From a virus, in the IMG/VR virus record IMGVR_UViG_3300029705_000088: a stretch of 64,000 nt of DNA; one strand, given 5' to 3'. Below, piece by piece: positions 20,876 to 21,679 of the stretch. A program made the position numbers and the translations under genes. How positions within the stretch are numbered: position 1 is the first letter of the stretch; each line of letters starts with the position of its first letter. The notes beneath the pieces are model-generated. The model saw only the letters and a program-made list of their open reading frames with translations, was not told the origin of the DNA and made no database searches.

Positions 20876-21679
20876 ATGTTTGAAAAAGTAAATCCTAAAC
20901 ATCCAGACAAGATTGCGGACCGCATTGCTGGAGCTATTGTTGATTATGCTTATAGTCTTAATGAAAATCCAAAAGTTGCAGTTGAGGTACTTATTGGGCA
21001 TGGAGAATGTACAATTATTGCAGAAACTTCTGAATAGTTAAAAAAGAAAGAAGTTGTAAAAATAGCACGTCGCATTGCAGAAATGCCTAAACTAAAAGTT
21101 CGGTTTAAGTGTGTATTGCAGGATTCTTATCTTGCTAAAAATCAAGCATATGGTTTTAGATGTGGTGATAATGGAATTTTTAAAGGTATTCCTTCAACTG
21201 AAGAGCAAAAGCAATTAACACAAACTGCTAAACGTATTTATAAACTTTATCCTTATGATGGAAAATATATTCTTGATGGTGATAAATTAACAATTTGCCA
21301 AAGTAATGCTGCTACAGAAGATATTGCTAGTCATTATTCGGATGCTCATATTAATCCACTCGGCTATTGGACTGGCGGTCCAGATGTAGATACAGGAGCG
21401 ACAAACCGCAAACTTGGCTCTGATATGGGAGATGCAGTAACCGGTGGAGGACTTCATGGTAAGGATTTATCTAAAGCAGATATATCGCTTAATATTTATG
21501 CTCATATTTTTGCACAAATGACCGGCAAGCCTGTAGAAATCTCTTGCGCTATTGGTGATACCACAATTACAGTAGATACAGAAACTAAACTTTATTCAGA
21601 AATTGTAGAAGTAGCACGTGGATATATTAAAGGACTTGGCGGTTTTGAAAAATTCGCAGAGTGGGGATTAATTAATTAA
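20876..21679 (+). CDS. shortened S-adenosylmethionine synthetase (MetK)-like protein, one in-frame TAG
   Basis: N-terminal KHPDKIADRIAGAIVD and C-terminal NPLGYWTGGPDVDTGATNRKLGSDMGDAVTGGGLHGKDLSKAD match the two conserved MetK blocks ([55 protein letters not shown]). Length is about 267 aa versus about 384. TAG at 21035. Confidence 0.5.

What the first reader, a model, noticed from the sequence alone, without database searches (positions are those of the whole stretch)
20876..21679. Shortened MetK (SAM synthetase) homologue retaining the N- and C-terminal conserved blocks but missing about 120 central residues
**Seen in sequence.** KHPDKIADRIAGAIVD and NPLGYWTGGPDVDTGATNRKLGSDMGDAVTGGGLHGKDLSKAD correspond to the MetK motifs [12 protein letters not shown] and [43 protein letters not shown]. 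The protein is only about 267 aa and contains one in-frame TAG.

**Established knowledge.** MetK is an obligate oligomer with active sites at subunit interfaces. Phages manipulate SAM pools: the T3 SAM lyase binds MetK, and SAM-dependent restriction or BREX defences are blocked when SAM falls.

**Inference.** A truncated MetK that keeps interface elements but lacks the central domain could co-assemble with host MetK as a dominant-negative inhibitor. That would be anti-restriction by SAM depletion. It could instead be a minimal functional synthetase.
Basis: partly seen in the sequence, partly recalled or inferred. Interest (0 to 1): 0.6.

Follow-up and report, generated by a model that had tools for sequence, protein, structure and literature searches.

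The report
Compact phage SAM synthetase (mini-MetK)
This is a real, intact gene for a trimmed-down version of the enzyme that makes the methyl donor SAM; it belongs to a short form already common in gut phages, keeps the enzyme's catalytic residues, and so is most likely a working enzyme, not a decoy that poisons the host enzyme.

Summary

The in-frame TAG (codon 54) is not a defect. The window comes from a TAG-recoded phage: it has a suppressor tRNA(CUA) 1.6 kb upstream and dozens of in-frame TAGs in other long ORFs.

The ~116 missing residues are not one central block. They are spread over about ten trims, the largest (-40) at the C-terminus, and all three MAT domains remain.

At least 14 MetK catalytic or ligand residues are kept and are invariant in close relatives. 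Asp163/Lys165 are very probably kept too. Divergence from an orthologue gives dN/dS = 0.12.

The protein belongs to a large, already noticed family of ~260-aa phage "SAM synthetases" (PHROG 1569; at least 572 IMG/VR contigs). In 48 of 71 loci a DNA methyltransferase gene lies directly downstream.

Best reading: an active minimal SAM synthetase that supplies SAM during infection. The dominant-negative idea is not supported. This window has no methyltransferase; the gene sits near the phage's tRNA and NAD-salvage genes.

It is a new member of a known kind. Enzymatic activity has never been shown.

The parts
20876..21679 (+). CDS of a 267-aa compact MetK-like protein (mini-MAT). It is read through one TAG and ends at TAA 21677-21679.
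   Evidence: frame; homology; fold; more than 100 relatives of 260-267 aa at 65-72% identity; dN/dS 0.12 against the orthologue in L005.
21035..21037 (+). In-frame TAG (codon 54), read as a sense codon. It lies at a variable surface position between strand 44-51 and helix 57-68.
   Evidence: The same TAG is present in the orthologue L005. Relatives have varied residues at this column. TAG is read through in many other ORFs of the window.
20861..20866 (+). Shine-Dalgarno AAGGAG, 9 nt before the ATG.
   Evidence: read directly from the sequence.
19204..19297 (+). Suppressor tRNA with anticodon CUA, needed to make the full-length protein. It has a long variable arm and no encoded CCA.
   Evidence: ARAGORN; Rfam tRNA 53.7 bits, E=6e-10; sequence and fold.
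20367..20861 (+). Upstream co-oriented gene (164 aa, PHROG 6927, function unknown). It ends 14 nt before the mini-MetK start, so the two are probably one transcription unit.
   Evidence: An inverted repeat plus T-run after tRNA-Lys at about 20284-20332 precedes it (read from the sequence).
21695..21723 (+). Perfect sigma-70-type promoter match (TTGACA-17-TATAAT with TG) just after the mini-MetK stop. It probably starts the next gene (DUF2828/DUF7788, 21804-23321), which makes the mini-MetK the last gene of its unit.
   Evidence: 12 of 12 matches. This is a consensus match only, not evidence of function.

Best explanation
The gene encodes a compact but complete methionine adenosyltransferase (SAM synthetase) of the short phage type. 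The three-domain MAT fold and the catalytic core are retained; surface helices, loops, a beta-hairpin and half of the C-terminal domain are trimmed. It most likely makes SAM from ATP and methionine in the infected cell, raising or maintaining the SAM pool for SAM-consuming reactions that benefit the phage. In most related phages that consumer is the phage's own DNA methyltransferases, encoded directly downstream, which methylate phage DNA against host restriction. In this phage no methyltransferase lies within the 64 kb, so the consumer is unknown. The gene sits between a tRNA array and tail-fibre genes, in a genome that also carries NAD+ salvage and RNA-repair genes, which suggests general cofactor maintenance. 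Full-length protein can only be made once the phage's tRNA(CUA) suppresses TAG codon 54.

Shown: homology, fold, residue retention, purifying selection, family size, synteny elsewhere, and recoding. Inferred: enzymatic activity, homo-oligomeric state, physiological role, and timing of expression.
For: **Fold**
- All top-50 Foldseek PDB hits are MATs.

**Catalytic map** (roles of the E. coli residues are from established MetK literature, recalled)
- H14->H9, D16->D11, K17->K12, E42->E37, E55->E50, Q98->Q82, D118->D98, F230->W165, D238->D172, R244->R178, K245->K179, K265->K196, K269->K200, D271->D202.
- D163/K165->D128/K130 is supported by 2 of 3 MAFFT modes when long-hairpin intermediates are included. 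It is also supported by the helix-hairpin topology of the model.
- The NQ of the gating loop is kept.

**Conservation and selection**
- All of these positions are invariant in 28-30 close relatives.
- They are kept in about 25 of 31 representatives at 32-59% identity. The six that deviate by three or more residues have lost several positions together, an all-or-none pattern typical of a catalytic set.
- dN/dS = 0.12 against the 93%-identical orthologue, on both sides of the TAG.

**Context elsewhere**
- The order HNH - 182-aa protein - short MetK - ParB_N/N6_N4 methyltransferase - C5 methyltransferase recurs in Oscillospiraceae, Streptococcus and Gardnerella phages and in gut contigs.
- Of 71 IMG/VR loci with enough downstream DNA, 48 have a methyltransferase starting within 400 nt downstream on the same strand, and 63 have one within 6 kb.

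**Literature**
- SAM synthetase (K00789) is present in 58.9% and C5 methyltransferase in 67% of Ca. Heliusvirales genomes (PMC11283538).
- In the conjugative prophage Phi1207.3 a 353-aa MetK with all three Pfam domains lies in the same module as an HNH endonuclease, a ParB-type methylase and a C5 methylase. Its authors proposed it as methyl-donor supply (PMC4260502).
- The prophage 12/111phiA MetK was described as differing from E. coli MetK by a 135-aa truncation without affecting the SAM synthetase domain. Its deletion and complementation gave phenotypes (PMC8223999).

**Recoding**.
Against: - No member of the short family has been shown to make SAM (no such paper found).
- Curated models reject it as a canonical MetK. 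TIGR01034 scores 54 bits against a cut-off of 309. The Pfam central domain PF02772 gives no hit, and the C-terminal domain PF02773 scores 17 bits against 25.
- The Asp163/Lys165 assignment is ambiguous by sequence alone: hhalign, one MAFFT run without intermediates, and E-INS-i put DGK on E. coli 174-176.
- 30% of the protein is gone, including half of the C-terminal domain, so stability, oligomerisation or activity may differ.
- No methyltransferase homologue or other evident SAM consumer was found in this 64-kb window. The role in this particular phage is therefore inferred by analogy.
- The model has a low-confidence stretch (residues 170-190, pLDDT about 50) over the GxTNRKLGSD loop.
- The 80 loci used for the synteny count are the best-scoring ones and are phylogenetically related, so 48 of 71 is not a count of independent events.
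Confidence: 0.7

Rival explanations
1. Dominant-negative or poison subunit. The short protein co-assembles with host MetK through the conserved flat dimer interface and inactivates it. This would lower SAM and so blunt SAM-dependent restriction or BREX.
For: - MetK active sites are formed at subunit interfaces, and phage T3 SAMase does inactivate MetK by forming hetero-polymers (PMC8406200; bioRxiv 10.1101/2023.02.27.530186; listed).
- The beta-sheet core that forms the interface is retained.
- A few divergent family members have lost many catalytic residues. Catalysis-independent roles therefore exist, or are evolving, somewhere in the family.
Against: - This protein and its close relatives keep every mapped catalytic residue under strong constraint. 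A mere binder would not need that.
- The usual neighbour is a SAM-consuming DNA methyltransferase in the same operon. Depleting SAM would defeat it.
- Identity to bacterial MetK is only about 20%, while the family is 60-70% identical across phages of unrelated hosts.
Confidence: 0.07
2. MAT-fold enzyme with altered chemistry or role. It might use another nucleotide or amino acid, make a SAM analogue, act mainly as a tripolyphosphatase, or bind and sequester SAM, rather than being a plain SAM synthetase.
For: - Strong divergence from canonical MetK: it fails TIGR01034 and PF02772.
- Family-specific invariant residues have no E. coli counterpart in the alignment: Cys96, Cys141, Trp165 in place of Phe230, His194, and the C-terminal GGFEKFAEWG motif.
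- Heavy trimming around the active-site periphery.
Against: - The residues that bind methionine (E55, Q98, D238 equivalents), the triphosphate and metals (H14, D16, K165?, R244, K245, K265, K269, D271 equivalents), and the adenine-stacking aromatic are all conserved.
- In Phi1207.3 a canonical three-domain MetK lies in the same kind of phage module, with the same methylases.
Confidence: 0.15
3. Decaying pseudogene. The in-frame TAG truncates the protein at residue 53, and the rest is untranslated or restarts at Met70 (ATG 21083) as a non-functional fragment.
For: - Under the standard code the frame is split into 53-aa and 198-aa ORFs.
- The related contig L005 has a 1-nt deletion in a G-run near codon 191.
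Against: - The window has a tRNA(CUA).
- In-frame TAGs occur in many long, clearly coding ORFs, for example 24 in 4153-6771 and 11 in 61438-63069.
- The TAG is conserved in the orthologue. dN/dS is 0.12 over the whole alignment, and only one of the 15 amino-acid changes lies upstream of the TAG.
- Codons 55-69 align with a helix present in all relatives.
Confidence: 0.03

Closest known systems
Short phage/prophage 'S-adenosylmethionine synthetase' family (PHROG 1569). Examples: Gardnerella phage vB_Gva_AB1 ORF19, Streptococcus Javan prophages, S. agalactiae prophage 12/111phiA MetK, and Ca. Heliusvirales K00789 hits.
   Same: - Same length class (260-267 aa), 59-72% identity over the full length, and the same invariant motifs.
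- Already annotated as SAM synthetase in some records. Its truncation relative to E. coli MetK is already noted in print (PMC8223999; PMC11283538).
   Different: - Here the gene is in a large TAG-recoded, tRNA-rich phage and carries an in-frame TAG.
- It is not next to a DNA methyltransferase. Its neighbours are a PHROG 6927 protein and a DUF2828/DUF7788 vWA protein. The family's usual neighbours are HNH, ParB-methyltransferase and C5-methyltransferase.
Canonical bacterial/eukaryotic MetK/MAT (E. coli MetK, 1RG9/1FUG; Pfam PF00438+PF02772+PF02773; TIGR01034).
   Same: - Colinear motifs and catalytic residues.
   Different: - 116 residues (30%) shorter through about ten distributed trims.
- About 20% identity.
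- Fails TIGR01034 and the central and C-terminal Pfam models.
- Phe230 is replaced by Trp.
- Oligomeric state unknown.
Full-length phage MetK in the same kind of module (Phi1207.3 orf29, 353 aa).
   Same: A phage-borne SAM synthetase in the same module as HNH, ParB-type and C5 DNA methylases. Its authors proposed that it supplies the methyl donor (PMC4260502).
   Different: That protein has all three Pfam domains at strong E-values and is about 90 aa longer. Its sequence was not compared here.
Phage T3 SAM lyase (SAMase) and its inhibition of MetK.
   Same: Both are phage proteins acting on the SAM pool, and both are relevant to restriction/BREX.
   Different: - No homology.
- Opposite predicted effect: T3 SAMase destroys SAM and polymerises MetK, whereas this protein is predicted to make SAM.
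Phage NAD+ reconstitution and other cofactor-replenishing auxiliary genes.
   Same: The same window encodes nicotinamidase-like, NAPRTase, NMNAT-like and NAD synthase genes plus NADAR. A SAM synthetase fits a theme of keeping cofactor pools up during infection (inference).
   Different: No SAM-depleting defence is known to me, and no link between the two gene sets was tested.

Membership tests
Canonical MetK / methionine adenosyltransferase | N-terminal domain matches Pfam PF00438 above the gathering score. | tested here: met
   48.5 bits against 33.1, E=1.4e-12, residues 3-67.
Canonical MetK / methionine adenosyltransferase | Central domain matches Pfam PF02772. | tested here: not met
   No hit even at E<=1. 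The motif equivalents (GD98NG, DGK130, CQ142S) are visible only in alignments.
Canonical MetK / methionine adenosyltransferase | C-terminal domain matches Pfam PF02773 above the gathering score. | tested here: not met
   17 bits against 25, E=0.006. Only profile positions 2-52 of 138 are matched.
Canonical MetK / methionine adenosyltransferase | NCBIfam TIGR01034 (metK equivalog) above its cut-off. | tested here: not met
   54.1 bits against 309.4.
Canonical MetK / methionine adenosyltransferase | Three-domain pseudo-threefold MAT fold. | tested here: met
   - Foldseek E about 1e-12.
- This rests on an AF2 model of pLDDT 81.
Canonical MetK / methionine adenosyltransferase | Catalytic and ligand residues: H14, D16, E42, E55, Q98, D118, D238, R244, K245, K265, K269, D271 (E. 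coli numbering; roles recalled from the literature). | tested here: met
   All map to identical residues in the query. They are invariant in close relatives.
Canonical MetK / methionine adenosyltransferase | Catalytic Lys165 (with Asp163). | tested here: inconclusive
   - D128-G129-K130 aligns to D163-A164-K165 in 2 of 3 MAFFT modes with intermediates and fits the model's helix-hairpin topology.
- hhalign and other runs place it on D174-G175-K176.
Canonical MetK / methionine adenosyltransferase | Makes SAM from ATP and L-methionine; homo-oligomer with active sites at the dimer interface. | not testable with these tools
   No multimer prediction or assay was available.
Short phage MetK-like family (PHROG 1569) | Full-length match to the family profile and to ~260-aa members. 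| tested here: met
   - PHROG 1569 E=2.9e-62 over residues 1-266.
- 120 of the 120 best database hits carry PF00438. 118 of them are 260-268 aa long at 64-72% identity; the other two are a 214-aa frameshifted call (P0001) and a 295-aa call with an N-terminal extension (P0041).
- 288 clusters at E<1e-30.
Short phage MetK-like family (PHROG 1569) | Usual genomic setting: directly upstream of a ParB_N/N6_N4 and/or C5 DNA methyltransferase. | tested here: not met
   There is no methyltransferase homologue anywhere in the window (tblastn; Pfam). It is present in 48 of 71 (adjacent) and 63 of 71 (within 6 kb) related loci.
   Catalytic residues and all three domains are retained.
TAG-recoded phage (stop codon reassigned) | Suppressor tRNA(CUA), plus in-frame TAGs in many otherwise intact long ORFs. 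| tested here: met
   - tRNA at 19204-19297.
- More than 60 in-frame TAGs across about 29 of the mechanically called ORFs of at least 70 aa (a few overlap tRNA genes and are probably not genes) when TAG is read through.
- The amino acid inserted was not established. One TAG<->CAA and one TAG<->GAA orthologous pair were seen.

The most novel reading that the evidence does not exclude
The ~260-aa protein is a fully active, self-sufficient SAM synthetase, which would be the smallest natural MAT. In this recoded, tRNA-rich phage it is uncoupled from DNA methyltransferases. It would act together with the phage's NAD+ salvage genes as a cofactor-replenishment kit, restoring pools that the host or its defences run down. 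That would imply SAM depletion is a defence or stress that phages need to counter.
Probability: 0.12. Interest if true: 0.6.

Novelty: new member of a known kind. Interest (0 to 1): 0.3.

Why it matters
**For this window, it mainly settles an annotation**
- The gene is intact.
- The TAG is a recoded sense codon.
- The product should be called a compact SAM synthetase-like protein, not a broken or decoy MetK.

**More broadly**
- The short family is very common in gut phages: at least 572 IMG/VR contigs, 288 clusters at 50% identity, and reported in about 59% of Ca. Heliusvirales.
- No enzymology was found. PHROGs still lists the family as 'unknown function', and NCBI's metK model rejects it.
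- If it is active, it defines a MAT catalytic core about 30% smaller than any characterised enzyme. That would interest people who engineer MATs for SAM analogues.
- It would also show that SAM supply is limiting for phage self-methylation.
- The window's member is unusual in lacking the methyltransferase partner, which leaves its SAM consumer open.

Tried and rejected
1. **Q in the closest relative as evidence for TAG=Gln: rejected.** P0001 (94% identical) has Q at the TAG position. But the DNA of its contig L005 has TAG at the same codon, so the Q comes from the source's alternative-code translation.
2. **Amino acid inserted at TAG: not established.**
   - Orthologous codon pairs between the window and L005 gave only one TAG<->CAA and one TAG<->GAA.
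   - The suppressor tRNA is not similar to the phage tRNA-Gln and has a long variable arm.
3. **Single-sequence alignment to E. coli MetK is unreliable in the middle.** MAFFT and hhalign drop Asp163/Lys165 because the spacing K->Q is 12 both from the query's K130 and from E. coli K176. Adding long-hairpin family members resolves it in 2 of 3 modes. I could not obtain residue-level structural superposition from the tools.
4. **BFVD (viral structures) gave nothing useful.** Best TM was 0.25.
5. **Megablast of 24 kb of the window against 50,697 phage records found no match**, so the phage itself has no close sequenced relative there.
An alignment of homologues was used instead.
7. **Nine literature searches found no biochemical study of the short enzyme**. 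The MAT oligomerisation paper PMC9202080 does not mention phage forms.
8. **Pseudogene reading: rejected**.

Full report
**1. What is there**

On the + strand an ATG at 20876 opens a frame of 267 sense codons that ends at TAA 21677-21679. It has one TAG at 21035-21037, codon 54. A strong Shine-Dalgarno, AAGGAG, lies 9 nt upstream. The reverse strand has no comparable frame.

**2. The TAG is a sense codon**

- The window is 32% G+C and carries 23 tRNA genes between 7896 and 20274.
- One of these is a tRNA with anticodon CUA at 19204-19297. Rfam confirms it as a tRNA at 53.7 bits.
- When TAG is read through, many long ORFs appear that contain in-frame TAGs:
  - 24 in the three ORFs at 4153-6771;
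  - 6 in a tail-fibre-like gene at 16540-17928;
  - 8 in the fibre genes at 24030-30679;
  - 11 in a 543-aa protein with a cell-wall amidase domain at 61438-63069.
- A related metagenomic contig (L005, 93% nucleotide identity over the gene) has TAG at the same codon.
- Divergence between the two copies gives dN/dS = 0.12 over the whole alignment. Only one of the 15 amino-acid changes lies upstream of the TAG.

So the gene is intact in a TAG-recoded phage, and full-length product depends on the suppressor tRNA.

I could not establish which amino acid is inserted. The Q in protein P0001 comes from the depositor's alternative-code translation. The suppressor tRNA has an unusual ~23-nt variable arm and does not resemble the phage's tRNA-Gln. 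Codon 54 is at a variable position in the family, so this does not affect the conclusion.

**3. It is a MetK homologue, and the whole fold is there**

Sequence evidence:
- Pfam S-AdoMet_synt_N: E=1.4e-12, above the gathering score.
- phmmer against PDB MetK chains: E down to 3.5e-11 in two stretches.
- A family profile extends the N-terminal match through the GAGDQG motif.
- hhalign to E. coli MetK: 96.5% probability, colinear over residues 8-305.

Structure evidence:
- An AlphaFold2 model built on 30 sequences has pLDDT 81.2 and pTM 0.84.
- All top Foldseek PDB hits are MATs.
- With 241 of 267 residues superposed, this is not an N-terminal block plus a C-terminal block.

**4. Where the missing residues are**

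I counted between unambiguous anchors (HPDK, E42, E55, Q98, GD118, K165, Q188, INP, D238, K245, K265, D271, AIG). The 116-residue deficit relative to E. coli MetK is distributed as -5, 0, 0, -11, -4, -15, -11, -19, -1, 0, -3, 0, -7 and -40. The trims are:
- a shorter loop before strand 90-97;
- a shorter link after the GD118 strand;
- a shorter loop before Lys165;
- a much shorter beta-hairpin (165-188);
- a helix at 195-213 cut to about one turn;
- loss of half of the last 80 residues.

It is a uniformly compacted enzyme.

**5. Catalytic residues**

The functional roles of the E. coli residues are recalled from the established MetK literature, not tested here. The mapping:

| E. coli MetK | Query |
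|---|---|
| His14 | H9 |
| Asp16 | D11 |
| Lys17 | K12 |
| Glu42 | E37 |
| Glu55 | E50 |
| Gln98 | Q82 |
| Asp118 | D98 |
| Phe230 | W165 |
| Asp238 | D172 |
| Arg244 | R178 |
| Lys245 | K179 |
| Lys265 | K196 |
| Lys269 | K200 |
| Asp271 | D202 |

Asp163/Lys165 are the one uncertain pair.
- Pairwise methods align the invariant DGK128-130 with E. coli D174-G175-K176, because the spacing to the next anchor happens to be equal.
- When family members with longer hairpins are included, L-INS-i and G-INS-i both place DGK on D163-A164-K165.
- That placement matches the model's helix(109-124)-strand-turn-strand topology.

All these positions are invariant in 28-30 close relatives. In 31 representatives at 32-59% identity they are kept in about 25. 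Six deviant sequences have lost three to eleven of them together. That is the pattern expected of a co-dependent catalytic set with occasional pseudo-enzyme offshoots.

**6. The family**

- All of the 120 best hits in the 5.8-billion-protein database carry PF00438. 118 of them are 260-268 aa long at 64-72% identity. The exceptions are the closest relative P0001, a 214-aa frameshifted call at 94% identity, and P0041, a 295-aa call with an N-terminal extension.
- A profile search of 1.84 billion representatives finds 288 clusters at E<1e-30. Full-length members run from 260 to about 325 aa, and some larger proteins carry insertions.
- PHROGs files the family as phrog_1569, 'unknown function' (E=2.9e-62).
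- NCBI's metK equivalog model rejects it: 54 bits against 309.
- In GenBank phages it occurs in 25 records: Streptococcus Javan prophages, Oscillospiraceae/Acutalibacteraceae/Ruminococcus phages of Ca. Heliusvirales, Terrisporobacter, and Gardnerella phage vB_Gva_AB1. It is mostly annotated 'hypothetical protein' and once 'S-adenosylmethionine synthetase'.
- In IMG/VR at least 572 contigs carry it.

**7. Context elsewhere points to SAM supply**

- In these phages the order HNH - 182-aa protein - short MetK - ParB_N/N6_N4 methyltransferase - C5 methyltransferase is conserved, often with overlapping stop and start.
- Of 71 IMG/VR loci with at least 1300 nt downstream, 48 have a methyltransferase homologue starting within 400 nt on the same strand. 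63 have one within 6 kb. These loci are related to one another, so they are not independent counts.
- Published work agrees:
  - Ca. Heliusvirales carry K00789 in 58.9% and a C5 methyltransferase in 67% of genomes (PMC11283538).
  - In Phi1207.3 a 353-aa, three-domain MetK lies in the same module as an HNH endonuclease, a ParB-type methylase and a C5 methylase, and was proposed to supply the methyl donor (PMC4260502).
  - The S. agalactiae prophage 12/111phiA 'MetK' was described as 135 aa shorter than E. coli MetK with the synthetase domain intact. Its deletion and complementation changed aggregation phenotypes (PMC8223999).
- I found no enzymology of the short form.

**8. Context here**

- The gene follows a 164-aa PHROG 6927 protein (20367-20861).
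- It precedes, after a perfect sigma-70 consensus at 21695-21723, a 505-aa DUF2828/DUF7788 vWA protein. Convergent tail-fibre-like genes follow.
- The same arrangement is seen in L005.
- No DNA methyltransferase homologue occurs anywhere in the 64 kb.
- The window does encode two other auxiliary gene sets:
  - an NAD+ salvage set: isochorismatase-type nicotinamidase, NAPRTase, a cytidylyltransferase-type NMNAT and NAD synthase, plus NADAR;
  - a set of RNA/tRNA repair-like genes: Thg1, metallophosphoesterases, an AAA_33 kinase, cREC_REC and RNase T.
- The phage has no near relative among 50,697 phage records.

**9. Interpretation**

- Best explanation (about 0.7): an active minimal SAM synthetase that keeps or raises the SAM pool for the phage. 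Its expression is gated by TAG suppression. The SAM consumer in this phage is unidentified.
- The dominant-negative model (about 0.07) is contradicted by three things: retention of the catalytic set, the usual pairing with SAM-consuming methyltransferases, and high conservation across phages of unrelated hosts against about 20% identity to bacterial MetK. Hetero-oligomerisation was not testable.
- An altered-chemistry MAT-fold enzyme (about 0.15) cannot be excluded, given the divergence and family-specific invariant residues (Cys96, Cys141, Trp165, His194, GGFEKFAEWG).
- A pseudogene (about 0.03) is rejected.

**10. Novelty**

- The kind is known and has been noticed in print.
- This copy is a new member in an unusual setting: a recoded large phage, an in-frame TAG, and no methyltransferase partner.
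- Interest is modest (0.3). The open and worthwhile question is biochemical: is a 260-aa MAT core active, and is it the smallest natural SAM synthetase?

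Noticed in passing
window 47830-48363, 49028-49576, 52039-53262, 53266-54120, 54089-54586: A near-complete NAD+ salvage set: isochorismatase-type nicotinamidase, cytidylyltransferase-type NMNAT, NAPRTase and NAD synthase, followed by a NADAR-domain protein. 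It looks like a phage NAD+-replenishing / ADP-ribose-reversing gene set (Pfam).
   Followed up: partly
window 19204-19297: The suppressor tRNA(CUA) has a ~23-nt variable arm with a 6-bp stem and no encoded CCA (most of the other tRNAs in the window encode CCA). It is not similar to the phage's tRNA-Gln(UUG). The amino acid inserted at TAG is therefore not obviously Gln. Orthologous codon comparison gave one TAG<->CAA and one TAG<->GAA.
   Followed up: partly
window 33278-35740: An 820-aa protein matches the Major Vault Protein shoulder domain (E=4e-20), a vault repeat and an SPFH/Band 7 domain. Two further SPFH/flotillin-like proteins lie at 45474-46457 and 57752-59215. This is unusual content for a phage.
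   Followed up: no
window 40156-43063, 46954-47817, 55448-57711: A scatter of RNA/tRNA-repair-like genes next to the 23-tRNA array: tRNA-His guanylyltransferase (Thg1), three metallophosphoesterases, an AAA_33 kinase, a cREC_REC cyclic-phosphate-processing domain and an RNase T-like exonuclease.
   Followed up: no
proteins P0134, P0180, P0202, P0210, P0223, P0263 (family representatives): Six divergent members of the short MetK family have lost three to eleven of the 17 mapped catalytic positions at once, while keeping the fold-defining motifs such as the C-terminal GGFE..AEWG. They are candidate pseudo-enzymes.
   Followed up: partly
window 21804-23321 and L005 3910-5427: The gene directly downstream of the mini-MetK encodes a 505-aa DUF2828 + DUF7788 (vWA-like) protein. 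PHROGs calls it 'RNA-binding protein' (phrog_850, E=1.6e-127). The pairing is conserved in the related contig L005. It is preceded by a perfect sigma-70 consensus promoter at 21695-21723.
   Followed up: partly
window 4153-6771: Three adjacent ORFs (196, 383 and 291 aa; the middle one is a family-2 glycosyltransferase) carry 10, 7 and 7 in-frame TAGs. This is by far the highest TAG density in the window.
   Followed up: no
L005 about 3557 (orthologue of window about 21447): The closest relative's gene has a 1-nt deletion in a G-run (GGTGG-GG) that frameshifts the last 75 codons. It could be an assembly error or a real inactivation in that lineage; this was not resolved.
   Followed up: no
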